Assembly: GCA_964437555.1 (NCBI GenBank)
Contig: CAYTHI010000003.1
Location: 782 to 64,781, forward strand
Origin: Candidatus Woesearchaeota archaeon
GTDB taxonomy: Archaea > Nanobdellota > Nanobdellia > Pacearchaeales > GW2011-AR1
DNA length: 64,000 bases
Direction: 5' to 3'
Shown here: one piece after another, positions 12,517-57,842 of the stretch
How the letters are laid out: each line of letters opens with the position of its first letter
How positions within the stretch are numbered: the first letter of the stretch is position 1
Translations under genes and position numbers: made by a program
Notes under the pieces: model-generated
What the model was told of the DNA's origin: nothing
Database searches by the model: none
Seen by the model: the letters and a program-made list of their open reading frames with translations, nothing else

Positions 12517-13191
12517 ATGGTTAACTTCTATCTGGTTCCTTCATGGTTCTTCGGTTTTGGCACTATTTTGGAATTGATTTTTGGGATTATAACTTTGGCT
12601 GTTTCTCTTTATTCTTTTAAAGTGTATAAATATTCTCAATTAAGAGAGCCAAAGATTTTCGGATGGTCTTTTTTGGCTTTATCCTTGTCTTATTTTATAT
12701 GGGCTGCGGTAAGCGGATATGCAGGATTTCTTGCTCAGAAATCTGTTGATAATGTCTTTAATATTGCCGGTTTTACGCCAATTATTGTTCTTGGAATTTA
12801 TGCGCATATAATATTCTTTGTTCTCGGGCTTGTTACCCTGGCATATCTTACTTTTGGCATTAGAAGCCAGAGAGTTTATACTCTTTTAGCAAGCCTGAGT
12901 CTGATATCAGTATTGTTCAGCCAGACCAAGAGTATTTCTTTTTACTTCGTCTCATCTTTATTGCTGCTTTATGTTCTGTCTTTTTATGCTATTAATAAAT
13001 GGAAAAACAAGTCTTTCAGCAATTACTTTGTTCTTTTATCTTTTGTATTCTTGTTTGCAGGGACTGTTGACTTTACATTCTCTGCTGTGCGTCATATAAC
13101 TTATGTTGTTGGGCACATCTTTTATTTGATTGGATATGCATTTATTCTTGCTAATTTTATCCTCCTTTTTATGAAGTTGAGGAAAAGATGA
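12517..13191 (+). CDS. polytopic membrane protein (hypothetical)
   Basis: Multiple hydrophobic segments. ATGA overlap with the downstream wHTH gene. Confidence 0.5.
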   Translation: MVNFYLVPSWFFGFGTILELIFGIITLAVSLYSFKVYKYSQLREPKIFGWSFLALSLSYFIWAAVSGYAGFLAQKSVDNVFNIAGFTPIIVLGIYAHIIFFVLGLVTLAYLTFGIRSQRVYTLLASLSLISVLFSQTKSISFYFVSSLLLLYVLSFYAINKWKNKSFSNYFVLLSFVFLFAGTVDFTFSAVRHITYVVGHIFYLIGYAFILANFILLFMKLRKR

Positions 13192-14619: not shown

Positions 14620-14685
14620 TTATTCGAACTGCGTTCTCATACCTCCATTGGCTAGCAGCTTCGCCTTCGCTCAGTATACTATGAA

Positions 14686-14774
14686 AGCCTCTGGAGGGAA
14701 TTGAACCCCCAACCCTCAGTTTTTTTGCTTTTCTTGGTACAAAACTGATGCTCTAACCATTGAGCTACAGAGGC
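14686..14774 (-). tRNA. tRNA-Thr (anticodon UGU) with ~16-nt anticodon-loop intron
   Basis: Manual fold: acceptor GCCTCTG/CAGAGGC, D arm GCTC-AATGGTTA-GAGC, anticodon stem TCAGT/ACTGA flanking loop TTTGTA plus inserted CCAAGAAAAGCAAAAAA, T arm GGGGG-TTCAATT-CCCTC. Confidence 0.8.
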
Positions 14775-14814
14775 TTGTATTGTGAAAAGAAAATAGTCTT
14801 AAAAATCTATCGGA

Positions 14815-16413: not shown

Positions 16414-16474
16414 TTCGCCATGCTCGTTTTTTGCCTATAGCAAGGGTTAAATACCTAATATTGCAATATATATA

Positions 16475-16957
16475 ATGAAAAAGAGTGTTTTATTAGCTCT
16501 TATCTTTCTTTCTTTTATTCCTGTGAGTTTCGCTGATGAGATAATGAATGTGAATGTTGACATTGTTGTTCCGCAGGATATTGTTGAAATAGAAGTTCCT
16601 GATTATGTTGACCTTGGCGAGATAAACTGGACTTATGAGAGTAGGACTAACCCGACTTCAAATGATAAGATTTATATTAACAATACAGGAACTGTTAATG
16701 TGAGTGTAACTCCTGAACTTAAAAACCCTGATGAAATTTATGAATTTCTTCATTTTACAAAAAGATTAAGCGGCGAGAATTTTAACTGGACTCAAATAGG
16801 AGATTGGAGCATATTTATTCCAAGATCTGATGAATTGGGGGGATATGAGGATGATTACTTTTATATGAGACTGGATTTGACGGATTTTACCGGAAATATT
16901 AATCAGAGCCTTATTGATTATGATACTGACGTGTTATTTGTTGCAGTGGGAGAATGA
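16475..16957 (+). CDS. secreted protein (Sec signal peptide), hypothetical
   Basis: MKKSVLLALIFLSFIPVSFA signal peptide. First gene of a four-gene coupled surface cluster. Confidence 0.5.
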   Translation: MKKSVLLALIFLSFIPVSFADEIMNVNVDIVVPQDIVEIEVPDYVDLGEINWTYESRTNPTSNDKIYINNTGTVNVSVTPELKNPDEIYEFLHFTKRLSGENFNWTQIGDWSIFIPRSDELGGYEDDYFYMRLDLTDFTGNINQSLIDYDTDVLFVAVGE

Positions 16958-17541
16958 AAGTAGCTGTCTTATTTTTTGTTTTAATCTTTTTATTAAATTT
17001 TTTCATCGTTGACGGACTTAAAATAGGAATAAGTCCTTCTCAGGTTGAATTGCATGCTGATGAAAGCATGGATGCATGTGTGAATTTTACTTTATCTTCT
17101 GACAGAGATGTAGAATTTGATATAAGCTCTTTTTGGAGTGATTCAGATTCCAGAAAACTCGGAGATTATATATTATATCCTGCTGAGAAAGGCATAAGCT
17201 TTTCTTATAATTCATTGAATAGGTCAGGAGATAAAAGCAATTATCAAATGTGTTTGATAGGAGTCAAGGCAGGGGAATATTACGGAGTTTTGCTCGCAAA
17301 AGTTCTTGCAAAGAATGCTGCTGTCGGTATGTGGGTAGATTTTGAGGTTAAGGGCGAAAATGTGTTTGAGCGTTTAAGCGACAAGATTACAGGAGATGTT
17401 TTGGTCCTGAACGGAGCTCCTAAAGATGGGAAAAACTTTGCATATCCGGATTTACTTTTGCTCTTTAGCATTTTTCTTTCTTTTGTATTTCTTGTCCTTA
17501 TTCTAATGCTTGTTTTTAAGAGAACTAAAAATAAAATATGA
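16954..17541 (+). CDS. surface protein with N-terminal signal and C-terminal TM anchor, hypothetical
   Basis: N-terminal hydrophobic segment. C-terminal LLLLFSIFLSFVFLVLILMLVFKRTKNK anchor. ATGA overlap with upstream gene. Confidence 0.5.
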   Translation: MKVAVLFFVLIFLLNFFIVDGLKIGISPSQVELHADESMDACVNFTLSSDRDVEFDISSFWSDSDSRKLGDYILYPAEKGISFSYNSLNRSGDKSNYQMCLIGVKAGEYYGVLLAKVLAKNAAVGMWVDFEVKGENVFERLSDKITGDVLVLNGAPKDGKNFAYPDLLLLFSIFLSFVFLVLILMLVFKRTKNKI

Positions 17542-17592
17542 CTGACGAACATATCTGATAAACCTTATATATCCTTATTGGCTGATTAAATA

Positions 17593-19467
17593 ATGCTGAA
17601 TAAAAGAGGGCAGGTCGCTATTTTTATCATAATTGCGATAATTATTGTAGGAGGAATAGTTTTATTTGTTTCATTCAGGGATGTTATTTTCGGAACGAGC
17701 ATTCCTGCTGAATTACAGCCGGTTTTTAATGCGTATCAGGCCTGCATTAATGAAGAAACTGAAAGAGGACTTAATTTATTAGCTAATCAGGGAGGAAGAA
17801 TAAATATTGATGAATCTGACTTAGGGAATGATTATTCGCCCTTTACAAAAAATCTTAATTTTTACGGAGTTTCTGTTCCTTATTGGTATAGACTTGACGA
17901 GAAAGGGTTCATTGAAGAGAACATCCCCGCGAGAGGAGACATGGAAGAAGAGCTTGCGCAGCTTATTGAAGAAAATCTGAATGATTGTGATTTATCTTCT
18001 TATTATGAGCAGGGATTTTATATTGATTTGCCTGATGAAATCTCTTCGTCAGTCAGCATTTCAAATAATAAAGTGGAAGTTTCTGTGGATGCTGGCTTAA
18101 GCGTATCAAAAAAAGATATTTCTGCTGTAAAAGGCAAATATGATTTAGAAACGCAAAGCAGGCTTGGAGAGTTTTATGATGCGGCAAGAAAACTTTATGA
18201 TTATGAAGCTGAGACAAATTTTGCAGAAGAATATTCTATAGATGTCATCAGATTGTATGCTCCTGTTGATGGGGTTGAAGTCCAGTGCAGCCCGAAAATC
18301 TGGAAGACAGGAGAAGAGATTGATGCTGTTAAGGAAGGATTGGAGTCAAATATAGCTGCGATAAAGTTTCAGGGGGACGATTTTACTCTGGGGAGTAAAG
18401 ATAACAAATATTTTGTTGTTGACGCAAATACAAAGGTTCCTGCCAGATTAATTTATTCCAAGGAATGGCCCAGCGTTTTTGAGATAAGCGGCGATAAAGT
18501 AACTAATGAACTGATGATTGCAGAAGCTATTGGAAATCAGCAGGGGCTTGGAGTGATGGGCTTTTGCTATGTTCCCTATCATTTTGTATATGACATGAGG
18601 TTTCCGGTTATGTTTCAAGTAGGGGACGGGGTTGATTTATTCCAGTTTCCTGTTACTGTGATTGTAGATAATAATCTGGCTAAGAAAGCTGAATTGCCGC
18701 AAATAAATTACCAGGAACCTAAATTCAGGATGTGCGATTTCAAGGAAGCAGAAGCCGAGATTCACACTTATGATGAAGAGCTTAATCCTGTTGAAGCAGA
18801 TGTAAGCTTTGAATGCCTTGAAGAATCATGCGATTTAGGAAGAACAGAAATCAAGAATGGAGATGCTGTTTTTGAAGGCAGTATTCCTATCTGTGTAAAT
18901 GGAAAAATAGTTGCCAAAGCAGAAGGATTTTCTGATGCAAGACAAACGTTTTCCTCAAATAGCGAAAGTGTTGCAAATGTAATCATGGAGAAAGAATATG
19001 AAGTTGGAGTTAATGTTATGGTTGCAGGAGGGGGCATGAAGGAAGGCGAGCAAGCAGTTATTTACTTTGAAAATGATGAAGGCGGCAGAAGCGCTGTTAT
19101 TCCAGGAAATGAGAAAGTCAAGCTTAAGGAAGGGCAATACAAAATTAAGGTTTATGTTTACGGGAATTCCGGAATTACAATCCCTGCTTCAAGCAAGAGG
19201 CAGTGCATTGATGCTGCCAGAGGGGGCTTTGCAGGATTTTTCGGAGCGACAAAAGAGGAATGCTTTAATATTGATATTCCTGAGACAAAGATTGATTATG
19301 CTCTTAAAGGCGGAGGGCAAGAGGAAAGTTATATCCTTAAAGATGAATTGATTTCAGAAGAGATAAATTTGGAAGTTCAGGAATTGCCTTCGCCTGATTC
19401 TTTGGAGCAATTGCAGTACAATTATGAGCTTTTCAACAGCATGGGGGTTGGAATATCATTCAGATGA
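17593..19467 (+). CDS. large pilin-like surface protein with class III (type IV pilin-like) signal peptide
   Basis: MLNKRGQVAIFIIIAIIIVGGIVLFV fits a basic-Gly cleavage motif with Gln at +1 followed by a hydrophobic stretch, as in archaeal prepilin-peptidase substrates. 624 aa. Confidence 0.5.
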   Translation: MLNKRGQVAIFIIIAIIIVGGIVLFVSFRDVIFGTSIPAELQPVFNAYQACINEETERGLNLLANQGGRINIDESDLGNDYSPFTKNLNFYGVSVPYWYRLDEKGFIEENIPARGDMEEELAQLIEENLNDCDLSSYYEQGFYIDLPDEISSSVSISNNKVEVSVDAGLSVSKKDISAVKGKYDLETQSRLGEFYDAARKLYDYEAETNFAEEYSIDVIRLYAPVDGVEVQCSPKIWKTGEEIDAVKEGLESNIAAIKFQGDDFTLGSKDNKYFVVDANTKVPARLIYSKEWPSVFEISGDKVTNELMIAEAIGNQQGLGVMGFCYVPYHFVYDMRFPVMFQVGDGVDLFQFPVTVIVDNNLAKKAELPQINYQEPKFRMCDFKEAEAEIHTYDEELNPVEADVSFECLEESCDLGRTEIKNGDAVFEGSIPICVNGKIVAKAEGFSDARQTFSSNSESVANVIMEKEYEVGVNVMVAGGGMKEGEQAVIYFENDEGGRSAVIPGNEKVKLKEGQYKIKVYVYGNSGITIPASSKRQCIDAARGGFAGFFGATKEECFNIDIPETKIDYALKGGGQEESYILKDELISEEINLEVQELPSPDSLEQLQYNYELFNSMGVGISFR

Positions 19468-22400
19468 GAAAAATAATATTATCTTTCTTTTTTGTATCTT
19501 TACTTGGCTTGGTTTTTGTTGGTTTAGCAGGCGCGCAGACAGCTACTTTTGTAAATCATGTTTCTCCTGATTTCAGGCAATATTATTCTGCTGAGGAAAG
19601 GCTTGGGCAGTATTATCCTATTTTCTCCCAGGAAGATGAATTTTGCAGAAACAGGCAGGATATAATATTACAAGTTGCTCCGGCGGGATGCCAGCCGACT
19701 GTTGTAAGAAGTGATTTGCTTGCTGAGCAAAATGTTCCTGTTTTCTGCCAACTGCAGGCAATACAGGCAAATCCGTTGGTTGATATAAAGCAGATAAGAA
19801 ATATAAGATTCAGCGGCAGATATCCTGCTGAAATTTCAGGAACAGGTTTTCATCCTGCTAAAGCTGCATTAAGGACAGGAAATGTTTTGCTGGGAAATCC
19901 TGTTTTAAATGATGTAGGATATGTTGTAGTTGTATTGAAGAAAAATCCGAATGAAAAAGAATTGCCTGATTTTGTCAATGCAACCCTTACTGCTAATTTA
20001 GATTATTATGCCGGCAATGCTTTTGGGATAGGCTCAAGCGAATTACTTTTGCAGGTAGTTGATGATAGTAAATGGAATTCCGTGAGAAACAAGCAGAGCT
20101 TTTTGAACGGCGAATATTTCTTCAGATTAGAAGACGCCGAGCCGGAATTTGCGATTGTTTCTGTTTATCATCAGGACAGAAAAATTAATACAGTAAGAAT
20201 AAGCAGAGCAGAGGCATCAGAAAAGATTTATCTTCCCGGCTTGTACTGCGGAGGAGAGCTTAGATTAAAGTATGACGGATTTGTTTCTCCTGAAAATATT
20301 GCAAGATTAAAAGTTGGAGACGATGAAATTGAGGTTTATGAAGGCAGCAGTTTTCTTAATAATAAATGTGTTGTCAGAGACATTAGATTTACCAGCAATA
20401 GCGAAGGAAGTGTTGATGTTGTCTGCGGAACAGAAAGATTCAGCTTAAGCATAAATCCCGAAAGGCTGAATACGGGAGATTTAGTCAAGTTTGCTGATAA
20501 GGCAGAGAGCGCAGAACTTTGGAGTGTTGTTGGTTTTGAAGAAAATTCTGACGGGAAGAAAATAAGAATTACTAATTTAGCAGGAACAGAAAGCAGAACT
20601 ATTTCTTATTCAGAAATTGTTCCTGCTGATGAAGGCAGGCTTTATGAGGCAGTATATAATGCAGGCATTGAGGATTACATAAAGCAATCTATTGACAGCT
20701 ACGAGAGAACAGCCGTTGATTATTCAGCTGAAAAAGACAACTCCGGATTTTACGGGGAGAGAGCTCTTGAAAAGGGAATTGAATTTGCTGATAATACAAA
20801 CAAAGAAGTTACAGAAGCAAGATTAATCAATCTGCTCTTGGAGCAATACCCTTCTGCAAATAACTTTTCAAAATACAGCGACAAGCTTAACAGGATGTAC
20901 AGCATTAATTCTGACAAGGCAGTTGCGGTTGTGGATATTGATAATGATTATAAGACAATAAAATTAATTGGCTTTAGAGCGCCGGAGAAAAAATCTACGG
21001 CAACCATTGCATGGGGCGGAGAAAGATTCAGCGTTGAGCAGGGAAACAGCACTTCAGTCTCTCTTGGAAATCTGACTCTGAACAGGATTGAAAGAACAGG
21101 AATCAGCATTTCAGTTAAATGCTTGGATAAGGATTTAAGCGGAGGCAATTTCAATGTTAAAGTTGATGAAACTCAAAGAGGTGTTTGCGGAAGGGATTTG
21201 TCAATTGTAAATCTGAATATAGAAGATTTTGCCAGGATAAAAGTTGAGCCTGCAACAAGAACAACAGGACAGACAAACATAAGTATCAATATTGGAATTG
21301 AAAAAAGAGCGATACAGCTTTCTCCTGAGAAGGCGAGAGAGAAAATAGAAAATTTGAATAAAACCATTGAAAAATGGGAATCTGTTTCTAATAGCCTTGG
21401 AAATGTTGTAACAGGATTGAAGGCGGCGTGCTTTGCAACTTCAGGAATTCTGACTGCAAAGAATTTTCTTACAGGATTAAGCGGAGAAGCTTTGGCAAGG
21501 CAAAAAGTTATGAGAGACAGAGGAGGCTGGACAGACAGATGCACTAATGCTGTAAGCAGAGGAGAGTATTCAAGTATGGATGAATGTTTCAGGCAGAATG
21601 CAGGAGCCATTAGCGGCGATGTAAAATCAATGACAGAGGCGTTGAATCAGGTCAATGACAGGATTAAAGGAATACAGGGAGATTATGTCAAGCCCGCAGG
21701 AATTTTTGGAGAGACAATTACAGTTGATACAGACGGATTAAAACAAACCAACTTAGATTATATAAAACAGACTTATGGAAATTCTAATATAGAAAGCACG
21801 ACATCTAGCAATCAGCAGCTTGTTCTTGGTGATGTCATAGGGAGATTGCAAAGTGCTGATTCTCTTTCTCTTGATAAAATGAGTGATATTGAACTTTATG
21901 CAAAGCTGATTGATAATCAGGGAATAAGCAATGAGCAGAAAGAATTGTACAAGCAGAGACTTGGTTTTATTCTTGAGGATGTTGAAAAAAGGAATACAGC
22001 AGATAGCGAAAGAACGAGCTTTGAGACAGATACAGGATTTAAGGCGTATATTCCAAGCTATTCAAAGTCGGGAGAATATTATGGAAATGTTTATTCATCG
22101 GGAAAGATAAATTTAGGAAGCGGAGTTGATATTGAGGCGAATTCTCCTATCCAAGCTGTTCAGGGCAATGATGGAGCACAGTATTTGTTTGTTCTAAATG
22201 AGTTAAAGAATCAGGATGGGCAGACAATCTATTCTTATGACAGAAATAAAATTTATAAACTGACTGATAATAATGGCTGGACAGCCAATGCATTGCCTGC
22301 AACTTTTGATGTTGACAAAAGCATTGGAAGTTTTTCCACTTTCAGGAGCTTGAATGCGGGAAGTTATAATTATGCTTTTGCGCAGGGAGAGGCTGTTGTG

Positions 22401-24833
22401 AAATATTATGAAAGAGAGCCATTTAAGGGAATGCCTGCAATGGTGCCAGTAGATGTTGAGTCCGGGTTTTATGCTGCGACAGAGCAAACATTGCCAGGAT
22501 TTGGAAATATAAAAGCATTTGAATCTTCAGGAAGAATAGTAGGATTTTATGTTTGTAATGTTATGGAAGACAAGAGAGTTGGATTTTTCTCTCCAGGATT
22601 TGGAGATGACAGATGCATTAGATTTGATTTAACAACAGGGCAGCCTTTAGATGTATTCCCGGGGTTAGATAGTAGTAAGGCAAAAAGATTAGTTGAGAAG
22701 GCAATTCAGGCATTAAATGAAGCCGCAAGGCAGTATGGAAAAAGCCAGGTTACTATTCTTGGAAAAGTTTTCCAGACAGGAGCGCCTGCTGCATCTTCTC
22801 CTGCAACGCAATGCCAGGATTTCATGTCCCCTGAAGACTGCCAGTTGCTTTTCAATGTTTGCGATCCTGTGATATGCCCTACTTCAAGATGTGATTTTGG
22901 AGGGCAATACCCTGTTGATAATGTAATACAATCAGGAATTGTTGGAAGTGCTTTATTATGCCTTCCTAATGCTAAAGAAGGAATTGTTGTTCCTGTCTGC
23001 CTGTCGGGAATAAAAGCAGGAGTGGATGGGTATTTATCTATATTGAAATCTCATCAGGCATGTTTGCAGGAAAATATTGATACGGGAAATACTGTTGGTG
23101 TATGTGATTTAATCACTTCTGTTTATGCTTGTGAATTTTTCTGGAGACAGGCAGCTCCTCTTGCTAATGTTTTATTGCCTAAGATAGTTGAGTTTGCTTA
23201 TACAGGAGGACAGGGGCAAGTCAGAGGAGGAGGAGAATATTTGACTGTTCAATCTGCTTGGAAGAATACGCAGGATTCAATAGACTATTTCACTAATTAT
23301 TATGCCAAGAATTCTTTTGATTCTTTCAGAGCAAGAAGTATTGAGGAGGCGGGAACTCCTTTCTGCAAGGCATTTGTTTCTGCTAAGTCACCGACGTCGT
23401 TTGATACGTTATTAGCGCCAGATTCACCGGCGCAATATCATGCATGGTTTAGAGAGACAATTTATAGTGATGCAACTGTTCCTTCCACATCGCAGTATAA
23501 ATTATTTTATCATATCTTTGCAGGAAACGACAGAGGGGCTGTTTTCAGTGTTTATTTGAAGGAGCCCCCGGAAAGCTCTTATTACAGGACAACGCCGCAA
23601 ATAATTGTAGCTTCCGGATTTGTTGCAAGAGGGCAGGCAGTCAGCGAAACAAAAGACTTCACTGCTCCTTCTGGATACAAACAGCTTTGCATAAGAGTGA
23701 ATGACCAGGAAGAATGCGGATTCAAGCAGGTTTCAACGAGCTTTGCAGTTGACTATTTGAAAGACCAGTTTGTAAAAGATGAATTGGGAAGGACAGACAT
23801 TAAGACTGAAGCTGAATGCATTTCAGGAAGTGTTAATCCCGGTGCTTTGCTGAATCCTAATATACAGGAGGCAGCACAGGAAGCAATTGACCCTGCTGTC
23901 TATAAAAGAGGGATTGTAAGGATTTGCTCTACTGAAAATCCCGGGCTTTCAACTGATTCTGCAAGATTCAAGGAAGTTGGATTCTGCGGCGATGAGAAAC
24001 TTGTTTGCTGGCTTGATACCAATAGTGTTGATACAGCATTAAGTGATAGCATTCCTGCGGATATAAAAGCAGGCATAAATAATCAGACGCTTTCTGAATT
24101 AGGGGGAGAAGCAGATAAAATATTGCAGGAAAATGGATTTGTTTTGAATGCAGAAGCTTTGTTAAAGATAGATAAGATTGTAACAGAAATAGATAAGTTA
24201 GTAGGAAAAGGAAGTGAATTAAAGAATCAGCAATCACTTGCATCTGATTATTCACAGAAAGCTGTTTCTATTGAGTCAGATATAGAAGACTTAATGAGAA
24301 ACTTATTTTTTGACAGAGATAAAGCTGCTTTATTGATTGAAAGAGGCAGACTTTATGAAGGGCTTGCAAGAATATTGATCGGGCCTGATTTTAAAGGTGA
24401 TTTTAAAGGATTAGGAAAGGCGAGCCACACAGAATGCAGAGAGCAAATGTGCTATTCTGTGGAAGGGCCTGGAGATGATGAATGCAATGTTGATGAGGAT
24501 TGTGCTAGTATAACAGGAAATAGTAATGGAGGGACAGGTCAAGAAGCAGCAGGAACAGCAGAGCAATCTTTAAGCATTAAGGATGGCATTTTGCACGGAA
24601 AGGAAGGAAGTTTTCTTTATACTGATAATGTGATTAGTCCTATTTATTTTGTTGGCACAAGAGTTTTCGTTGTACTTTCAGACAGAGCTATTTTAATAGG
24701 AGACATTAGTGAAGGAAAAATTGTTATCAATAGCAATCAGGTTAGTGATGCGCAGGAAAGAGGTTTTATTGATGAAAGTGTTTCTGCCCTTACGAGCAAA
24801 ATTGACGGGAAAGATTTTGACGGATTTTTTTAA
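19464..24833 (+). CDS. giant (1789 aa) Cys-rich secreted/cell-surface protein
   Basis: Sec signal MRKIILSFFFVSLLGLVFVGLAGAQT. Many Cys pairs. ATGA overlap with the upstream pilin-like gene. Uninterrupted 5.4-kb ORF. Confidence 0.7.
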   Translation: MRKIILSFFFVSLLGLVFVGLAGAQTATFVNHVSPDFRQYYSAEERLGQYYPIFSQEDEFCRNRQDIILQVAPAGCQPTVVRSDLLAEQNVPVFCQLQAIQANPLVDIKQIRNIRFSGRYPAEISGTGFHPAKAALRTGNVLLGNPVLNDVGYVVVVLKKNPNEKELPDFVNATLTANLDYYAGNAFGIGSSELLLQVVDDSKWNSVRNKQSFLNGEYFFRLEDAEPEFAIVSVYHQDRKINTVRISRAEASEKIYLPGLYCGGELRLKYDGFVSPENIARLKVGDDEIEVYEGSSFLNNKCVVRDIRFTSNSEGSVDVVCGTERFSLSINPERLNTGDLVKFADKAESAELWSVVGFEENSDGKKIRITNLAGTESRTISYSEIVPADEGRLYEAVYNAGIEDYIKQSIDSYERTAVDYSAEKDNSGFYGERALEKGIEFADNTNKEVTEARLINLLLEQYPSANNFSKYSDKLNRMYSINSDKAVAVVDIDNDYKTIKLIGFRAPEKKSTATIAWGGERFSVEQGNSTSVSLGNLTLNRIERTGISISVKCLDKDLSGGNFNVKVDETQRGVCGRDLSIVNLNIEDFARIKVEPATRTTGQTNISINIGIEKRAIQLSPEKAREKIENLNKTIEKWESVSNSLGNVVTGLKAACFATSGILTAKNFLTGLSGEALARQKVMRDRGGWTDRCTNAVSRGEYSSMDECFRQNAGAISGDVKSMTEALNQVNDRIKGIQGDYVKPAGIFGETITVDTDGLKQTNLDYIKQTYGNSNIESTTSSNQQLVLGDVIGRLQSADSLSLDKMSDIELYAKLIDNQGISNEQKELYKQRLGFILEDVEKRNTADSERTSFETDTGFKAYIPSYSKSGEYYGNVYSSGKINLGSGVDIEANSPIQAVQGNDGAQYLFVLNELKNQDGQTIYSYDRNKIYKLTDNNGWTANALPATFDVDKSIGSFSTFRSLNAGSYNYAFAQGEAVVKYYEREPFKGMPAMVPVDVESGFYAATEQTLPGFGNIKAFESSGRIVGFYVCNVMEDKRVGFFSPGFGDDRCIRFDLTTGQPLDVFPGLDSSKAKRLVEKAIQALNEAARQYGKSQVTILGKVFQTGAPAASSPATQCQDFMSPEDCQLLFNVCDPVICPTSRCDFGGQYPVDNVIQSGIVGSALLCLPNAKEGIVVPVCLSGIKAGVDGYLSILKSHQACLQENIDTGNTVGVCDLITSVYACEFFWRQAAPLANVLLPKIVEFAYTGGQGQVRGGGEYLTVQSAWKNTQDSIDYFTNYYAKNSFDSFRARSIEEAGTPFCKAFVSAKSPTSFDTLLAPDSPAQYHAWFRETIYSDATVPSTSQYKLFYHIFAGNDRGAVFSVYLKEPPESSYYRTTPQIIVASGFVARGQAVSETKDFTAPSGYKQLCIRVNDQEECGFKQVSTSFAVDYLKDQFVKDELGRTDIKTEAECISGSVNPGALLNPNIQEAAQEAIDPAVYKRGIVRICSTENPGLSTDSARFKEVGFCGDEKLVCWLDTNSVDTALSDSIPADIKAGINNQTLSELGGEADKILQENGFVLNAEALLKIDKIVTEIDKLVGKGSELKNQQSLASDYSQKAVSIESDIEDLMRNLFFDRDKAALLIERGRLYEGLARILIGPDFKGDFKGLGKASHTECREQMCYSVEGPGDDECNVDEDCASITGNSNGGTGQEAAGTAEQSLSIKDGILHGKEGSFLYTDNVISPIYFVGTRVFVVLSDRAILIGDISEGKIVINSNQVSDAQERGFIDESVSALTSKIDGKDFDGFF

Positions 24834-24962: not shown

Positions 24963-25565
24963 TTACTGCTTATTTTTTCTTGCAAGAATAACAGCGAGCA
25001 TTCCAAGCAGACTGACTAGTACTGGGAACCATACCTGCGAAATCCAGGGAACAGGAATTAAGAATAAGATGTCCTGGGTTAATAATGAAGATGGCCAACC
25101 CACAGCGAGCCAAAGCCCGACGTAGTAAAATATATCCCATGCTGCAAATGTCCATAAAAATACGGCAAATCTTTCTTTGGTTGCTTTAACAGATAGTAAA
25201 GCTATAGAAACCAGCATTATTATTGTAGCAATTTCCCTGAATATTTCTATTGCAAATAATGTTTGCGGCAGTTCATTTGATAGACTGAGAGCTTGGGTTT
25301 CTGGATTAAGTCCTATCGCTATCCTAAGATAAATCACAACAGCCGCTTCAACAAATCCGAATGCTGCGCTAAAGATTGCAGTTGTTAGAAGTGTTTGCTT
25401 TTGTATATTTAATTTCTTTTCTTTCCAGAAAAAATATGCGATGAATGGAACCAGAATCAGCAGATTTACCCACCATGGGTGTGCTAATAATTGAAATTCT
25501 TCCATGCTATTATAGAGAATTCTGGTAATTATAATCCTTTTTGTCCAGAGTTCTCTTATGGACAA
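24963..25565 (-). CDS. polytopic membrane protein (hypothetical)
   Basis: Multiple TM segments. True start may be the internal Met (MEEFQ...). Confidence 0.45.
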   Translation of the reverse strand: MSIRELWTKRIIITRILYNSMEEFQLLAHPWWVNLLILVPFIAYFFWKEKKLNIQKQTLLTTAIFSAAFGFVEAAVVIYLRIAIGLNPETQALSLSNELPQTLFAIEIFREIATIIMLVSIALLSVKATKERFAVFLWTFAAWDIFYYVGLWLAVGWPSSLLTQDILFLIPVPWISQVWFPVLVSLLGMLAVILARKNKQ

Positions 25566-28481: not shown

Positions 28482-29138
28482 ATGGCAAAGAGAGCTGTGT
28501 CTTTAATCATGTTGGTTTTATTCGTATCTGGTATGTTTTTTATTTTTTATTCTGAATATGGAAATATCACAGGCAGAGTCTCTGATTCGGATTATAGTTT
28601 TGATGTTATTGTAAATATTCCAGAAAAGACTGATATTCTTAAAGGGGAAAGTTTAGAGTTGCCTGCTAGTGTTATAAATTTAAATGCGGGGGTTTTAAAA
28701 GGATGCATGTTTGATTTTGAGAGTGATTTCCCCGGAACTATTTCAACAGAACAGAAGGAAATCATATATTCTTTGGAGAAACAGAATTATAATTTTGATA
28801 TCAATGCAGTATCTACTGCGTTCTTGGGAAGTTATTTAGTTCATTATACTTTTTCGTGTGAAAGCGGGCTTGAAAATGGTATTTTTTATATAAATTTATT
28901 AGATTCTAAGTCTGAATCTGGTCTAATCGGCTCTAATAAGAAGATGGAAAGCAGGATTACCGGATTTTCTGTTTTTGATAAAAGCACAAAGATTACTTCT
29001 TTGTTCGTAGTTTTAATCTCGCTGATAGTAATCTTCATTGCTTTGAAGTCTATTATAAAGAGAGAAAATGCTCATAATTATTTTTCTTCCAGAAAGTTCA
29101 TTAAATTGAATCTGGAAGATAGTCAGGGCAATCTTTAA
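28482..29138 (+). CDS. membrane-anchored extracellular protein, hypothetical
   Basis: N-terminal TM segment and a C-terminal TM near the end. Confidence 0.45.
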   Translation: MAKRAVSLIMLVLFVSGMFFIFYSEYGNITGRVSDSDYSFDVIVNIPEKTDILKGESLELPASVINLNAGVLKGCMFDFESDFPGTISTEQKEIIYSLEKQNYNFDINAVSTAFLGSYLVHYTFSCESGLENGIFYINLLDSKSESGLIGSNKKMESRITGFSVFDKSTKITSLFVVLISLIVIFIALKSIIKRENAHNYFSSRKFIKLNLEDSQGNL

Positions 29139-29165
29139 ATAGGTTTTTTTGACTTTCTTTGTGAT

Positions 29166-29253
29166 GCTCCCGTAGCTCAGCCTGGATAGAGCATCGGACT
29201 TCTAATAAGAAGAAGGAATCCGGGGGTCGCAGGTTCAAATCCTGTCGGGAGCG
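29166..29253 (+). tRNA. tRNA-Arg (anticodon UCU) with ~13-nt intron
   Basis: Manual fold: acceptor GCTCCCG/CGGGAGC, D arm GCTC...GAGC, anticodon stem TCGGA/TCCGG with loop CTTCTAA and inserted TAAGAAGAAGGAA, T arm GCAGG-TTCAAAT-CCTGT. Confidence 0.8.
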
Positions 29254-29297
29254 TTTTATTTAAGTAGATTTATATACCCTTATCAATAGAAATTTTT

Positions 29298-41444: not shown

Positions 41445-41506
41445 ATGTCAAGAAGTCTCCTCAACTTCTTGAACATCCAAAAAACTAAACTTAAAGTTTT
41501 TTTGAT
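41445..41506 (+). repeat. 62-bp repeat element, copy B
   Basis: Matches 29887..29948 with an inverted loop. Overlaps the last 5 codons and the stop of alaS. Confidence 0.6.
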
Positions 41507-43713
41507 TTAACAATTGCCTTTATTCTTCTTACTCCGGCTGCGACTGATTCTTCCTTGATAATTTTAAAGTAGCCAATTTCTTTTGTGTTCTTTACATGAG
41601 GGCCTGTGCAGATTTCTTTGCTGAACCATCCGCCTTTTTCTTTTTTATCTATAATTGTGTATACGGAAACTTTCTCTGGATATTTGTGTCCGAATTCTGC
41701 CTGTGCTCCTGATTTTAAGGCATCCTGTAATTTTTCCTCTGTTCTTATGACTTCTAACCCTTCAGAGATTTTTCCATTTACTAAATCCTGAACTTTCTTT
41801 ATTTCTTCATCTGTAATTTTTCTTGGAAAATTGAAATCAAATCTTAAGCGTTCTGGAGTTATATTGGAACCGCGCTGTTTCACTTCTTGGCCTAGGATTC
41901 TTCTCAAGGCTTCGTTTAGCAAATGAGTTGCAGTATGAAGATGAGTTGTTGCTTCTGATGAATCTGCAAGACCTGATTTGAAGACACCTGCTGACTGAGT
42001 TCTTGATAATTCCTGGTGTTTTCTCATTTCAGATTCAAATCCTTTTCTGTCAAATTTTAGATTTCTAAATTTTTTGCATTCCTCTTCAATTAATTCTAAA
42101 GGGAAACCATAGGATTGATATAAGAGGAACGCTTCTTTTCCTGTAAGAGTTCCCATGCTTCTTGACTTTGAAGTTTTTCCTTTATTTTCTATAGCTTCAA
42201 TTATTTTTTTATTAAATATCATCAATCCCCTTTCAATGGTATTATTAAATTTATTTTCTTCTTCATCTAATTGTGTAAGAATGAAATTCCTATTTTTTTC
42301 TAACTCTGCATAATCAGAATAAATTTTAAAGACAGGTTCAGCAACTTTATGCATAAAGTTTTTTAAGGCATATCTTTGTCCTAACCTTACACTTCTTCTT
42401 ATTAATCTTCTTAAAACATAACCTCTTCCCCTATTGCTTGGTGTAACTCCCTCTGCAAGTATAAACACTGAGGCCTTTACATGGTCAGCTATTATCCTCA
42501 TTTTTTCTTGATCTTTATATTTATTGTTAGCTAATTTCTCGATCCCGACTATTATCGGTTTCCAAATTTCTGTTAAGTAATTATCGTCTAAATTGTTTAA
42601 AATTGCAAGGGTTCTTTCAACTCCCATGCCGGTGTCTACATTTTTCTGCTTTAATGGAATAAAATAGTATCGGTTGCCTTCAATAAACTTTTCAATTTGA
42701 TTTGGATTTTTGTATAGTTCCGCTTTATTTATCCCTGCTTTTTTTGCAGATTCTAAATTGTCTTTTTTATGGTCAAAATAAATGACTTCTTCTGGCTTTA
42801 AATTGTAATTATTTAATAATTTTTTAAAAAATTCTGGATTATCTTTTGAGGGATTTTTATCAAACCCTATTATGTCATAGGGCTTTCCAAGTCTATCTTC
42901 AATGTTTTTAAGGGTTTCTTCAGTATTAAAATTCTGTAAGACCTCTTCTACTCTTTTCTTATCATTCGTCACAATAATTTTTTTTATTCTATATCTTTGT
43001 AGTAATTCATGCAATTTTTGATTTAATTTATCTTTGTCATTTATCAGACATTTTATGGCATCCACTAATATGTATTTTATTTCTGTCTTGTTGTACTGCA
43101 TAAAAACATCATTCCAGATTTCAACCCAGTTCTTATCTTTTGGATTGAATTTCTTTGGAGCCGGCTTTTTTCCTGCCCAATAAAACATCTCTGTATCAGG
43201 ACCGCATGGGCCTGTTTTTCCTGCAGGCCCCCACCAATTGTCTTCTTTTGGAAGGAAGGCAATACGTTCTTTTGGTATTCCTAAAGAAAGCCAGACATTT
43301 GCGGATTCTTCATCTTTTTTCGCATCTTTATCTCCTTTAAAACAGGAAATTGCTAATTTATTAATCGGAATTTTAAGTTCTTTTGTAAGGAATTCGTATG
43401 AGAAAGAAATAGCTTCTTCTTTCCAATAATCACCTAAAGACCAGTTTCCGAGCATTTCAAAGAAAGTATGATGGGCTGTATCTCCGACTTCATTTATGTC
43501 TCCTGTTCTTATGCACTTCTGAACGCTTGTGAGCCTTCTTCCAAGAGGATGAGGATTCCCTATTATGTATGGAACAAGGGGGTGCATACCGGCTGTTGTG
43601 AATAATACAGTAGGATCATTTTCCGGTATTAGGGATGATGAAGGGATTATTTCATGCCTTTTTCTCTTGAAGAAATTAAGGTATTTATCTATCAGGTTTT
43701 TTCTGGTTATCAT
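41491..43713 (-). CDS. alaS: alanyl-tRNA synthetase (bacterial-like catalytic core, editing domain present, no C-Ala) with ~150-aa HAD-like insertion
   Basis: LFTTAGM, HHTFFEMLGNWSLGDYWK, DTGMGVER, editing HTATHLL and CTGPHV. ~150 extra residues between IWNDVFMQYNKTE and GNRYYFIPL carry HAD-like motifs (IIVTND, GKPYDIIGFD, EEVIYFDHKKDN...AKKAGI). Confidence 0.85.
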   Translation of the reverse strand: MITRKNLIDKYLNFFKRKRHEIIPSSSLIPENDPTVLFTTAGMHPLVPYIIGNPHPLGRRLTSVQKCIRTGDINEVGDTAHHTFFEMLGNWSLGDYWKEEAISFSYEFLTKELKIPINKLAISCFKGDKDAKKDEESANVWLSLGIPKERIAFLPKEDNWWGPAGKTGPCGPDTEMFYWAGKKPAPKKFNPKDKNWVEIWNDVFMQYNKTEIKYILVDAIKCLINDKDKLNQKLHELLQRYRIKKIIVTNDKKRVEEVLQNFNTEETLKNIEDRLGKPYDIIGFDKNPSKDNPEFFKKLLNNYNLKPEEVIYFDHKKDNLESAKKAGINKAELYKNPNQIEKFIEGNRYYFIPLKQKNVDTGMGVERTLAILNNLDDNYLTEIWKPIIVGIEKLANNKYKDQEKMRIIADHVKASVFILAEGVTPSNRGRGYVLRRLIRRSVRLGQRYALKNFMHKVAEPVFKIYSDYAELEKNRNFILTQLDEEENKFNNTIERGLMIFNKKIIEAIENKGKTSKSRSMGTLTGKEAFLLYQSYGFPLELIEEECKKFRNLKFDRKGFESEMRKHQELSRTQSAGVFKSGLADSSEATTHLHTATHLLNEALRRILGQEVKQRGSNITPERLRFDFNFPRKITDEEIKKVQDLVNGKISEGLEVIRTEEKLQDALKSGAQAEFGHKYPEKVSVYTIIDKKEKGGWFSKEICTGPHVKNTKEIGYFKIIKEESVAAGVRRIKAIVKSKKL

Positions 43714-56984: not shown

Positions 56985-57842
56985 ATGAAAAAAACAGAAA
57001 TGAAAGGAGGTAAAGACGAAATGGAAAATAAAATGGTAAAGGCAGGAGCTATGTTTGCTATGGCTTTACTTTTGTTAGGGGCTATTGCACCTTTAATCAG
57101 TGCTGTTCCTCTTTCGGAGGAAAACAGGATTGCTGAGCAGAGATATGCTGAATCAAGGCAAAGCTTTTTGCAGGCGGAAAATATCTATAAGCAGGCAAGA
57201 GCTGATTTCTTTACTGCAAAACAAAGATTTGGAATAAGGGATGAGGCATCAATAACTGCTGCAAGAAATTTCTTAGATAAGGCAATTACAGCAACTGTGA
57301 GATATCTTGAAAATATCAAGGATTTTGTAGCAGCTGACTGGGCATTATCTGAAGCGCAGAAAAGCGCAATAGCCGCAGGGATTGATACGGATATTCAGTG
57401 GCTTGAAGGCAAGCAGGCAGAGATTGCGACTGCTGACAGAGCGGCTCTTGTAGCGATTGGCAAGGAAGTCAGGGATTATTGGGCGCAAGTCCGAGTGGAT
57501 TTAAAGAAGAATGTTATTGCTCCAATCTTAAGCGCGAGAGCTGACTGGCTTTTAATGAAAGCTGACGAAGCAAGCGACAGAGTTCTGAATGCCATATCGG
57601 AAGCGGAAGCGAGGGGAGAAGATGTAACGCGTGCTAGAGAAATACTTGCTGACTTTGATAGCAAGATGGACCTGGCTCAATCTGAATATGATAAGGCAAA
57701 AGCCAAGTTCGCTGAAATAAACAGCCTTGCAGATGCTGATGAATTTTTCAGAGCAGCGCAGGAATTTATGAGGCAGGGTAATACATATCTTAGACAGGCT
57801 TATGCTTCGCTAAGAGATGCTTATGCAGAAATAAGAGCATAA
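56985..57842 (+). CDS. secreted/anchored Ala-rich alpha-helical protein (hypothetical)
   Basis: N-terminal hydrophobic MVKAGAMFAMALLLLGAIAPLISAV. The remainder is predicted helical. Confidence 0.45.
   Translation: MKKTEMKGGKDEMENKMVKAGAMFAMALLLLGAIAPLISAVPLSEENRIAEQRYAESRQSFLQAENIYKQARADFFTAKQRFGIRDEASITAARNFLDKAITATVRYLENIKDFVAADWALSEAQKSAIAAGIDTDIQWLEGKQAEIATADRAALVAIGKEVRDYWAQVRVDLKKNVIAPILSARADWLLMKADEASDRVLNAISEAEARGEDVTRAREILADFDSKMDLAQSEYDKAKAKFAEINSLADADEFFRAAQEFMRQGNTYLRQAYASLRDAYAEIRA

What the first reader, a model, noticed from the sequence alone, without database searches (positions are those of the whole stretch)
16475..24833. Four-gene translationally coupled surface operon: two small secreted proteins, a 624-aa pilin-like protein with class III signal peptide, and a 1789-aa Cys-rich giant protein
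All four ORFs begin with signal or TM segments. Three of the junctions are ATGA overlaps or gaps of <60 nt. The third protein starts MLNKRGQ-VAIFIIIAIIIVGG, a basic-Gly cleavage site with Gln at +1 followed by a hydrophobic stretch, as in archaeal prepilin-peptidase substrates. The fourth is one of the largest ORFs plausible for a small genome; it is Cys-rich and ends just before tRNA-Leu. In DPANN-like episymbionts such giant surface proteins are candidate host-attachment factors, and the operon composition (pilin-like plus giant adhesin plus small secreted partners) is not a described system.
Basis: partly seen in the sequence, partly recalled or inferred. Interest (0 to 1): 0.55.

Follow-up and report, generated by a model that had tools for sequence, protein, structure and literature searches.

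The report
Conserved Pacearchaeota surface protein pair
Two overlapping genes, one for a membrane-anchored pilin-like 624-aa protein and one for a secreted 1789-aa protein, form a strongly conserved pair found in hundreds of tiny symbiotic (DPANN/Pacearchaeota-type) archaea; they match no known protein family or fold and are probably a core cell-surface complex.

Summary
The four ORFs, both ATGA overlaps, the 51-nt gap, the signal/TM starts and the flanking tRNAs are exactly as reported. The unit is not one conserved four-gene operon.

- **Conserved core:** g3 (624 aa) plus g4 (1789 aa). g3 lies directly upstream of g4 in all 79 related loci that have upstream DNA. The 4-nt overlap is kept in 50 of 73 loci. 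The pair sits in the same housekeeping neighbourhood (S3Ae/L44e … TFB/S8e). Relatives occur in 512 GTDB species genomes, all DPANN.
- **Rate of change:** the pair evolves about as slowly as ribosomal protein S3Ae.
- **Accessory pair:** g1 and g2 always occur together but in only 12 of about 77 loci, evolve faster, and have their own TATA box, as does g3.
- **g3 N-terminus:** [K/R]-[G/A]-Q followed by a hydrophobic stretch is kept in 117 of 120 homologues, with leaders of 3-40 aa. This fits a class III signal. No peptidase or pilus ATPase is in the window, and the rest of the genome could not be searched.
- **g4:** not a fusion artefact and not a repeat adhesin. It has a Sec signal, no anchor, 30 invariant cysteines and a mosaic of conserved and variable blocks.

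Best reading: a g3-anchored, g4-displaying surface or host-contact complex. Its function is unproven.

The parts
16447..16453 (+). TATA-box-like element (TTAAATA) about 25 nt upstream of the g1 ATG; putative promoter of the g1-g2 unit
   Evidence: Sequence read. Similar TTAAATA/TTTATATA elements lie at about -25 to -35 upstream of g1 homologues in most g1-bearing loci. Function is inferred, not shown.
16475..16957 (+). g1: 160-aa secreted acidic protein (Sec-type signal 1-~20; 18 kDa; pI 4.1; no Cys) with a conserved 'NNTGTV' beta-rich domain. Accessory gene.
   Evidence: Homologues occur in only 11 of about 76 related loci and always together with g2. Identity to the closest relative is 42-44%, where g3/g4 are 62-65%. 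No Pfam or NCBIfam hit.
16954..17541 (+). g2: 195-aa protein with an N-terminal signal, a beta-rich domain with 2 conserved Cys, and a C-terminal TM anchor plus basic tail. It overlaps g1 by ATGA. Accessory gene.
   Evidence: Same restricted distribution as g1. A database search with g1+g2 concatenated returned only g2 itself.
17565..17572 (+). TATA box (TTATATAT) centred about 25 nt upstream of the g3 ATG, inside the 51-nt g2-g3 gap; putative own promoter giving a leaderless g3-g4 transcript
   Evidence: The same (C/T)TTATATA element lies at -30 to -22 in about 13 related loci that lack the small upstream ORF. Function is inferred.
17593..19467 (+). g3: 624-aa, 69.5-kDa membrane-anchored protein, the conserved partner of g4
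   Evidence: More than 1050 homologues at 44-65% identity over the full length. It lies directly upstream of g4 in 79 of 79 loci with upstream DNA. It has 10 invariant Cys. AF2 model pLDDT is 81.7. No Pfam hit in any of 57 members.
17593..17676 (+). g3 class III-type signal: leader MLNKRG, predicted cleavage before Gln7, then the hydrophobic helix QVAIFIIIAIIIVGGIVLFVSF
   Evidence: 117 of 120 homologues have [K/R (89%)]-[G 105 / A 12]-Q followed by at least 20 of 22 hydrophobic residues. Leader length is 3-40 aa. The mature N-terminus Q-V-(T/A/S)-I-F-V-I-x-A is strongly conserved. Cleavage itself was not tested.
17716..18672 (+). g3 N-terminal alpha/beta ectodomain (aa ~42-360) with no identified structural relative
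18730..19464 (+). g3 C-terminal beta-sandwich domains (aa ~380-624), transthyretin / CarboxypepD_reg / CnaB-like
19464..24833 (+). g4: 1789-aa, 196-kDa secreted protein without a membrane anchor; its start overlaps the g3 stop (ATGA)
   Evidence: More than 556 homologues at 41-62% identity over about 90% of the length. There are 1055 clusters at the 50% level, 917 of them with E<=1e-30, and 512 GTDB species genomes. It has 30 invariant Cys. The 4-nt overlap is kept in 50 of 73 loci. There are no internal repeats.
19464..19535 (+). g4 Sec-type signal peptide (MRKIILSFFFVSLLGLVFVGLAGA|Q)
   Evidence: Hydropathy. All 40 homologues inspected have a basic n-region, a hydrophobic core and an (A/S)xA|Q-type end. 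The cleavage site is inferred.
19644..20453 (+). g4 conserved N-terminal block (aa 61-330)
   Evidence: Mean identity to the query across 53 sequences is 0.38-0.78 per 30-aa window. Invariant residues include C61, C76, C95, C262, C302, C321 and the RSD motif.
21261..21533 (+). g4 conserved helical block (aa 600-690) containing a ~52-residue helix
   Evidence: Conservation 0.59-0.70. AF2 helix at segment residues 33-84, which correspond to g4 622-673.
22341..24053 (+). g4 conserved core (aa 960-1530): a 10-Cys cluster (1117-1223), moderately hydrophobic helices, an ApaG/FnIII-like beta-sandwich (~1324-1420) and a C-terminal Cys-containing subdomain
24054..24830 (+). g4 variable C-terminal region (aa 1531-1789): helical bundle, a disordered Gly/Ser-rich linker and a small beta domain
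   Evidence: Conservation is 0.07-0.28 with gaps. Homologue lengths vary from 1.7 to 2.75 kaa. AF2 gives helices at segment 943-1050, disorder at 1054-1111 and a beta domain at 1114-1191.

Best explanation
**Proposed complex.** g3 and g4 encode the two subunits of a lineage-specific cell-surface complex that belongs to the core genome of Pacearchaeota-type DPANN archaea.

**Proposed mechanism.**
- g3 is targeted by a class III (prepilin-type) signal. After probable cleavage between Gly6 and Gln7, its conserved hydrophobic N-terminal helix stays in the membrane as the only anchor. Its 590-aa ectodomain (a novel alpha/beta domain plus transthyretin-like beta-sandwiches) projects outward as a stalk.
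- g4 is exported through Sec and loses its signal peptide. It has no anchor of its own and is held at the surface by binding g3.
- The conserved 4-nt start/stop overlap couples translation of the two genes, so they are made in fixed proportion.
- The slowly evolving, Cys-stabilised blocks of g4 (61-330, 600-690, 960-1530) form the assembly and mechanical core.
- The variable, indel-rich inserts (331-390, 540-600, 750-960, 1530-end) are the exposed parts that meet the environment or host.
- The complex acts as the main surface coat or host-contact structure of the cell rather than as a long pilus.
- g1-g2 is a separate, optional 'secreted plus C-terminally anchored' pair with its own promoter that decorates or modulates this surface in some lineages.

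**Shown:** gene structure, targeting signals, conservation, synteny, coupling geometry, and the lack of known homologues.

**Inferred:** signal cleavage, g3-g4 binding, surface location, and a role in host contact.
For: - **Linkage and coupling.** g3 is immediately upstream of g4 in 79 of 79 related loci that have upstream DNA. The 4-nt overlap is kept in 50 of 73.
- **Synteny.** The pair sits between S3Ae/L44e and TFB/S8e in many genomes. No relatives were found in viral contigs.
- **Family size.** 512 species genomes carry a relative. The family comprises 1055 50%-identity clusters and is sharply bounded.
- **Rate.** g3 and g4 identities (44-65%) track S3Ae, phosphoglycerate mutase and the RNase Z-like protein in the same genome pairs.
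- **Targeting logic.** g3 has a conserved [KR][GA]Q + hydrophobic N-terminus with a variable-length leader and no other TM segment. g4 has a Sec signal in all 40 homologues inspected and no anchor.
- **Cysteines.** 30 of 34 in g4 and 10 of 10 in g3 are invariant, as expected for extracellular disulfide-stabilised proteins.
- **Mosaic conservation and length.** g4 shows conserved and variable blocks. g3 length is nearly fixed (607-654 aa) while g4 varies (1.7-2.4 kaa).
- **Biological context.** Pacearchaeales have genomes of about 0.74 Mb and lack ATP synthase and glycolysis. They appear strongly host-attached.
Against: - No direct evidence exists for g3-g4 binding, for surface localisation or for expression.
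- Class III processing is untested. No peptidase, ATPase or platform gene is among the 34 window proteins scanned against Pfam or in motif scans of the window and about 1.2 Mb of related loci.
- One paper states that type IV pilus components are missing in DPANN.
- Surface coat proteins and adhesins usually evolve fast, whereas this pair evolves like housekeeping proteins.
- g4 has fewer N-glycosylation sequons than expected, 7 against about 13.6.
- The g4 model is only moderate (pLDDT 69), and its most conserved stretch is modelled worst.
- The first 589 residues of g4 were not modelled.
- Another gene in the window (54857-56797) has the classic archaeal surface-glycoprotein layout and could be the real coat protein.
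Confidence: 0.4

Rival explanations
1. True two-component S-layer. g4 is the lattice-forming canopy protein and g3 the membrane stalk, a functional analogue of Sulfolobales SlaA/SlaB that covers the whole cell.
For: - A large secreted subunit without an anchor plus a smaller single-TM subunit, encoded by coupled adjacent genes.
- Near-universal and syntenic with housekeeping genes.
- Both proteins are acidic, pI 4.4 and 4.9.
- S-layers are seen on other DPANN, and SlaA/SlaB is the known two-component precedent.
Against: - No sequence match to any solved S-layer protein.
- The SlaB match is a generic beta-sandwich.
- The g3 anchor is N-terminal and pilin-like, not a C-terminal TM plus coiled coil.
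- g4 is helix-rich and Cys-rich, not an array of Ig-like domains.
- N-glycosylation sequons are depleted.
- Conservation is far higher than is usual for S-layer proteins (the comparison rests on general knowledge).
- A separate glycoprotein-like candidate lies at 54857-56797.
Confidence: 0.2
2. Pilus-associated adhesin. g3 is a large minor pilin incorporated at the tip or base of a type IV-like filament, and it presents g4 as a host adhesin, like minor pilins with PilY1.
For: - Strongly conserved class III-type N-terminus with Gln at +1.
- Sequence conservation of the hydrophobic helix itself (F at +5 in 102 of 117, I at +7 in 112 of 117) exceeds what a plain anchor needs.
- TFF systems 1 and 4A, the latter including a PilY-like adhesin, are reported in some DPANN.
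- Secretion ATPases were found in 'nanoarchaea' whose pilins could not be identified.
Against: - No ATPase, platform or peptidase gene lies in the 64-kb window or next to the pair in 85 loci.
- The pair sits among housekeeping genes, not in a pilus locus.
- In the g3 model the helix is broken after the TM part and is followed by a 590-aa ectodomain, not a pilin fold.
- No small major-pilin gene is nearby.
- He et al. report T4P components missing in DPANN.
Confidence: 0.15
3. Host-membrane contact or transfer machine. The conserved, moderately hydrophobic Cys-clustered core of g4 undergoes a conformational change or oligomerises. It thereby bridges, perforates or extracts lipids and metabolites from the host envelope, with g3 as its base.
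For: - The core is constrained at 53-68% identity over 570 aa, flanked by variable receptor-like inserts. Viral spikes have a similar layout (analogy, from general knowledge).
- The most conserved stretch (1230-1321) is the one AF2 models with least confidence. This is compatible with an oligomeric or metastable element.
- Long helices are present.
- Pacearchaeales lack ATP synthase, glycolysis and most biosynthesis, so they must take resources from a host.
Against: - No g4 segment apart from the signal peptide reaches TM-like hydropathy.
- No structural similarity to known fusogens, pore formers or lipid-transfer proteins.
- Low AF2 confidence has many trivial causes.
- The idea is entirely inferential.
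Confidence: 0.15
4. Extracellular enzyme complex. The conserved g4 core is a novel hydrolase or scavenging enzyme tethered to the cell by g3.
For: - Enzyme-like conservation with many invariant polar residues, for example R82-S83-D84, H130, E164, D1134, E1258 and the nearly invariant H1350.
- Pacearchaeota are proposed to live on scavenged nucleotides, and they encode other large extracellular enzymes.
Confidence: 0.07

Closest known systems
Archaeal class III signal-peptide proteins that are not filament subunits (e.g. Sulfolobus bindosome sugar-binding proteins processed by PibD)
   Same: Both have a short basic leader ending in Gly/Ala and a conserved hydrophobic N-terminal helix, followed by a large globular ectodomain that stays cell-associated (family description).
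   Different: There is no sequence or fold relationship. g3 is paired with a giant secreted partner. No Bas-like assembly genes or peptidase were seen nearby.
Epd-type (EppA-processed) archaeal pilins of TFF system 1
   Same: The [K/R]-G-Q cleavage-site pattern with Gln at +1 is shared (the +1 Gln of EppA substrates is from my own knowledge). System 1 is reported in some DPANN.
   Different: g3 is 624 aa with a multidomain ectodomain and a broken N-terminal helix. Its mature N-terminus QV(T/A)IFVI does not show the QxSxE pattern that I recall for DUF361 pilins. It is not located in a pilus gene cluster.
SlaA/SlaB two-component S-layer of Sulfolobales
   Same: Both combine a large anchorless secreted subunit with a smaller single-TM stalk subunit built of beta-sandwiches, encoded by adjacent co-expressed genes.
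   Different: There is no homology. The anchor is at the opposite end. g4 is helix-rich and Cys-rich, has few sequons and is highly conserved.
Minor pilin + PilY1-type tip adhesin modules of type IV pili
   Same: A pilin-like protein is genetically coupled to a large non-pilin surface protein. A PilY-like adhesin is reported in archaeal subsystem 4A/B.
   Different: No PilY1/beta-propeller fold was found and there is no pilus machinery context.
Pacearchaeota/Woesearchaeota lineage-specific families of unknown function (modules 222 and 98 of Castelle et al. 2021), including the up-to-3000-aa lytic-transglycosylase proteins (fam00969)
   Same: They share a lineage-restricted distribution, a predicted extracellular or membrane location and large size.
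   Different: g4 has no lytic transglycosylase or other Pfam domain. Whether g3 and g4 are among the published family lists could not be checked, because the supplementary table is not held.

Membership tests
Archaeal type IV pilin-like / class III signal peptide proteins | Short, positively charged leader ending in Gly or Ala at -1 | tested here: met
   K/R at -2 in 104 of 117 homologues and G (105) or A (12) at -1 in 117 of 117. Leader length is 3-40 aa.
Archaeal type IV pilin-like / class III signal peptide proteins | About 20 hydrophobic residues immediately after the cleavage site, conserved in sequence | tested here: met
   At least 20 of 22 residues are hydrophobic in 117 of 120 homologues. 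Q+1 is invariant, F+5 occurs in 102 of 117, I+7 in 112 of 117 and A+9 in 108 of 117.
Archaeal type IV pilin-like / class III signal peptide proteins | Processing by an A24-family prepilin peptidase (PibD/FlaK/EppA) encoded in the genome | not testable with these tools
   None is among the 34 window proteins scanned. The GxGD motif scan hit only SRP54, by chance.
Archaeal type IV pilin-like / class III signal peptide proteins | Assembly ATPase and platform protein, usually in the same locus | tested here: not met
   No T2SSE/T2SSF-type gene lies in the 64-kb window or within about 6-10 kb of the pair in 85 loci. Presence elsewhere in the genome is unknown.
Archaeal type IV pilin-like / class III signal peptide proteins | Pilin fold: one long continuous alpha1 helix packed on a small beta-sheet head | tested here: not met
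   The AF2 model has helix 5-32, a low-confidence break at 29-41, helix 42-65, and then a 560-aa multidomain ectodomain.
SlaA/SlaB-type two-component S-layer | Sequence or specific structural homology to SlaA or SlaB | tested here: not met
SlaA/SlaB-type two-component S-layer | Large anchorless secreted subunit plus small membrane-anchored subunit from adjacent co-expressed genes | tested here: met
   This is an architectural analogy only.
SlaA/SlaB-type two-component S-layer | Formation of a regular lattice; heavy N-glycosylation | not testable with these tools
   The lattice cannot be tested here. Sequons are depleted in g4, 7 against about 13.6 expected, which argues against heavy N-glycosylation.
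Giant repeat adhesins (Ig-like, cadherin or beta-helix repeat proteins; SPEARE-type DPANN proteins) | Tandem arrays of adhesin domains or recognisable protease/nuclease/adhesion domains | tested here: not met
   No DNA or protein internal repeats. No Pfam domains in the core. Only one ApaG/FnIII-like sandwich was detected.
Giant repeat adhesins (Ig-like, cadherin or beta-helix repeat proteins; SPEARE-type DPANN proteins) | Rapid sequence turnover and patchy distribution | tested here: not met
   Identity of 41-62% over the full length in hundreds of genomes, a fixed genomic position, and a rate similar to S3Ae.

The most novel reading that the evidence does not exclude
g3-g4 is a previously unrecognised archaeal surface nanomachine. 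A pilin-type anchored base carries a 200-kDa disulfide-locked protein of new fold. This complex is the order-wide device by which Pacearchaeales, which lack ATP synthase, glycolysis and most biosynthesis, dock onto the host envelope and draw lipids, nucleotides or energy carriers from it. The conserved core would be the working part and the variable inserts would set host specificity.
Probability: 0.2. Interest if true: 0.85.

Novelty: new variant of a known kind. Interest (0 to 1): 0.55.

Why it matters
Pacearchaeota-type DPANN archaea are abundant and uncultivated, and they depend almost completely on other cells. How they attach to and exploit a host is unknown.

This gene pair takes up about 1% of a roughly 0.74-Mb genome and is kept in a fixed housekeeping neighbourhood in hundreds of species. 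It evolves as slowly as a ribosomal protein yet is predicted to be extracellular, and it has no relative in any curated family or solved structure.

That combination makes it one of the best-defined candidates for the core envelope or host-interface structure of this order. It also gives concrete handles for experiments: antibodies or tags for cryo-ET, a testable prepilin-type cleavage site, a conserved core suited to structure determination, and variable inserts to compare with host range.

Tried and rejected
- **Curated families.** Pfam and NCBIfam scans of all four proteins gave nothing. Pfam on 57 individual g3 homologues also gave nothing.
- **PDB sequence profiles.** Searches with the g3 and g4 alignments found nothing meaningful.
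- **Pilus machinery.** Pfam on 30 further window ORFs and motif scans of all ORFs in the window and in about 1.2 Mb of related loci found none. Genome-wide presence could not be tested.
- **Other class III-like proteins.** Scans of the window and the loci found almost none.
- **g1+g2 database search.** It returned only g2 itself.
- **Viral or mobile origin.** Rejected, because IMG/VR holds no relatives.
- **Fusion artefact.** Rejected on the evidence.
- **Repeat adhesin.** Rejected on the evidence.
- **Small upstream ORF in relatives.** The ribbon-helix-helix reading could not be confirmed by Pfam, NCBIfam or PDB.
- **Source record.** Look-up of the window's own record failed.
- **Literature.** No paper found describes this pair. 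Castelle 2021 Supplementary Table 3, which might list the families, is not held.

Full report
**1. Observation**

- g1, 16475-16957, 160 aa
- g2, 16954-17541, 195 aa
- g3, 17593-19467, 624 aa
- g4, 19464-24833, 1789 aa

g1/g2 and g3/g4 overlap by ATGA, and g2 and g3 are 51 nt apart. tRNA-Val (+) lies 61 nt upstream of g1. tRNA-Leu lies on the minus strand 5 nt after the g4 stop.

A hydropathy scan gave these results:
- g1 has an N-terminal signal-like segment.
- g2 has a signal plus a C-terminal TM with a basic tail.
- g3 has one N-terminal hydrophobic helix after MLNKRGQ.
- g4 has only an N-terminal signal and no other TM-like stretch.

g4 is 196 kDa with pI 4.9, and g3 is 69.5 kDa with pI 4.4. 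'Cys-rich' holds only moderately: 1.9% in g4 and 1.6% in g3, against 0.92% in 24 Pfam-assigned genes of the window.

The window is archaeal and AT-rich, about 35% GC. It carries TFB, S3Ae, L44e, S8e, SRP54, FtsY and several aminoacyl-tRNA synthetases.

**2. What is conserved**

g4 has more than 556 database homologues at 41-62% identity over about 90% of its length. g3 has more than 1050 at 44-65% over the full length. Where a source gives a name, all are hypothetical proteins of Pacearchaeota or Nanoarchaeota MAGs.

An exhaustive HMMER search with the g4 core (aa 960-1530) found 1055 clusters at the 50% level. Of these, 917 have E<=1e-30 and only 45 fall between 1e-10 and 1e-3, so the family is sharply bounded. 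Protein lengths run from 1.7 to 2.75 kaa.

A scan of one genome per GTDB species found relatives in 512 genomes. All of the 80 loci listed carry DPANN labels, namely Pacearchaeota, Woesearchaeota or Nanoarchaeota, with two odd auto-labels. IMG/VR viral contigs contain none.

In the 85 loci fetched:
- g3 lies directly upstream of g4 in every locus that has upstream DNA, 79 of 79.
- The 4-nt overlap is kept in 50 of 73 loci. Part of the remainder reflects my crude start-codon calls.
- TFB and S8e lie downstream in most loci, and S3Ae/L44e or Gins/PGM lie upstream in many.

Between the window and four relatives, g3 (46-65%) and g4 (44-62%) are as conserved as S3Ae (48-66%), phosphoglycerate mutase (56-69%) and the RNase Z-like protein (54-62%). 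That is unusual for predicted surface proteins.

g4 is therefore a real single gene, not a fusion artefact.

**3. The operon is modular**

Iterative searches of all ORFs in the loci find g1 and g2 homologues only together. They occur in only 11 of about 76 loci plus the window, always just upstream of g3. They are also more diverged: 42-44% and 28-40% identity in the two relatives where g3/g4 are 52-65% and 46-62%. A database search with g1+g2 concatenated returned only g2 itself.

g1 is an anchorless secreted beta-rich protein with a conserved NNTGTV motif. g2 has a signal, a beta domain with two conserved Cys and a C-terminal TM plus basic tail.

Both g1 and g3 are preceded by TATA-like boxes centred about 25 nt before the ATG: TTAAATA at 16447-16453 and TTATATAT at 17565-17572. 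The same elements recur in relatives. The window therefore most likely holds two leaderless bicistronic units, g1-g2 and g3-g4, each internally coupled. This is inference, since no transcript data exist.

About 50 of 76 relatives have no TATA box before g3. Instead they carry a highly conserved 42-48 aa ORF (MKKYLLLIEDEKLWEKFKE.I.KDINSEIIELIKEKV..GGKK). It abuts or overlaps the g3 start and is followed by a GGAGG-like motif. Its strand-helix-helix pattern suggests a ribbon-helix-helix protein, but Pfam, NCBIfam and PDB profile searches gave no support. The search, which covered ATG-initiated ORFs of 25-120 aa, found no copy in the 64-kb window.

**4. g3**

Among 120 homologues, 117 have [K/R in 89%]-[G 105 / A 12]-Q followed by at least 20 of 22 hydrophobic residues. 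Two of the three exceptions look like truncated gene calls.

The leader before Gln varies from 3 to 40 residues and is not conserved. The mature N-terminus Q-V-(T/A/S)-I-F-V-I-x-A is strongly conserved. This is the pattern of archaeal class III (prepilin-type) signals. From my own knowledge, Gln at +1 is typical of EppA-processed Epd pilins.

The AF2 model has mean pLDDT 81.7 and shows the following:
- helix 5-32, then a low-confidence break
- helix 42-65
- an alpha/beta domain extending to about residue 360
- beta-sandwich domains to the C-terminus

No listed hit was of another fold type, so the alpha/beta domain has no identified relative.

g3 is thus pilin-like in its targeting signal but is not a canonical pilin.

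**5. g4**

All 40 homologues inspected have a Sec-type signal ending (A/S)xA|Q.

Conservation is mosaic:
- Conserved blocks: 61-330, 600-690 and 960-1530.
- Variable, gap-rich stretches: 331-390, 540-600, 750-960 and 1530-end.

Thirty cysteines are invariant, ten of them clustered in 1117-1223. There are no tandem or internal repeats, and the four proteins show no similarity to each other. N-glycosylation sequons are fewer than expected, 7 against about 13.6.

The AF2 model of residues 590-1789 is moderate, with pLDDT 69. It shows long helices, several beta domains, a C-terminal helical bundle, a disordered linker and a small beta domain. The most conserved stretch (1230-1321) has the lowest confidence.

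**6. Pilus machinery**

None of the 34 window proteins scanned with Pfam (the four ORFs and 30 others) is an A24 peptidase, a secretion ATPase or a platform protein. Motif scans of all ORFs in the window and in about 1.2 Mb of related loci found none. No further convincing class III-like proteins were seen.

- He et al. state that T4P components are missing in DPANN.
- Makarova et al. found secretion ATPases in 'nanoarchaea' without identifiable pilins, and found two genomes without a peptidase.
- A 2026 preprint reports TFF systems 1 and 4A in some DPANN.

The class III processing step therefore remains untested.

**7. Interpretation**

What the data show directly is a translationally coupled, obligately linked, slowly evolving, core-genome pair. 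One protein has a single pilin-type N-terminal anchor. The other is a giant anchorless secreted protein.

The simplest mechanism is a stoichiometric surface complex in which g3 tethers g4. The conserved blocks would form the assembly core and the variable inserts the exposed face. I give this generic anchor-plus-ectoprotein, host-contact or coat model a confidence of 0.4.

Narrower rivals are:
- a true SlaA/SlaB-like S-layer lattice (0.2)
- a pilus-tip or pilus-base adhesin module (0.15)
- a host-membrane bridging or transfer machine (0.15)
- a tethered novel enzyme (0.07)

The context makes a host-interface role attractive. Pacearchaeales genomes have a median size of 739 kb at 34% GC and lack ATP synthase and glycolysis. 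They appear tightly host-attached. Published work notes Pacearchaeota-specific families of unknown function that are largely membrane-bound or extracellular. I found no paper describing this particular pair.

**8. Verdict**

The real unit is the g3-g4 pair, with an optional g1-g2 pair and, in other genomes, a small upstream ORF.

By sequence and fold it belongs to no known family. By architecture it is a new variant of known anchor-plus-large-subunit surface systems. Interest is moderate to high for DPANN cell biology, but the function is unproven.

Noticed in passing
L001:8000-8137, L005:7976-8113 and ~50 other related loci; absent from window: A highly conserved 42-48 aa ORF (MKKYLLLIEDEKLWEKFKE.I.KDINSEIIELIKEKV..GGKK) sits immediately upstream of g3, overlaps its start and is followed by a GGAGG-like motif. 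It occurs in about two thirds of relatives. Its strand-helix-helix pattern suggests a ribbon-helix-helix regulator or small assembly factor. A more distant paralogue (…KKFLLEVPSDLWEKWKD…) lies about 5 kb downstream of g4 in L016, L029, L060 and L064.
   Followed up: partly
window 54857-56797 (+): A 646-aa protein with no Pfam or NCBIfam hit. It has an N-terminal TM/signal, 3.6% Cys, many N-x-S/T sequons, and a C-terminal TM plus basic tail. This is the classic layout of an archaeal surface glycoprotein, so it is an alternative S-layer candidate. It is followed by a 285-aa protein (56985-57842) with a signal peptide and an Ala-rich sequence that looks helical.
   Followed up: partly
window 41491-43713 (-): The alanyl-tRNA synthetase (740 aa) has a HAD-type hydrolase domain (aa ~224-329) between two stretches matching its class II core. 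This is an unusual domain arrangement.
   Followed up: no
window 62473-63507 (+): An undecaprenyl/cis-prenyl diphosphate synthase domain is fused to an N-terminal acylphosphatase domain in a single 344-aa ORF.
   Followed up: no
window 14685-14775 (-) and 29165-29254 (+): tRNA-Gly (91 nt) and tRNA-Arg (90 nt) are about 15-18 nt longer than standard tRNAs, which suggests introns. In several related loci a tRNA 3' end (…GGGGCCA) also lies just upstream of g1, as tRNA-Val does here.
   Followed up: no
window 24963-25565 (-) and 12517-13191 (+): Two multi-TM proteins (200 aa and 224 aa) have no Pfam match. The first lies directly downstream of g4 and tRNA-Leu. Unannotated proteins of similar size (188-213 aa) occupy a similar position in L001 and L004, but I did not compare their sequences. 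Neither window protein has the GxGD motif of prepilin peptidases.
   Followed up: partly
window 28482-29138 (+): A 218-aa protein starts MAKRAVSLIMLVLFVSG… (a weak class III-like or signal-anchor start) and has a second TM near the C-terminus. It has no family match.
   Followed up: no
window 24386-24409 (+), inside g4: Two exact copies of a 12-nt unit (TGATTTTAAAGG) encode DFKGDFKG in the variable C-terminal region of g4. This is the only tandem repeat in the locus.
   Followed up: yes
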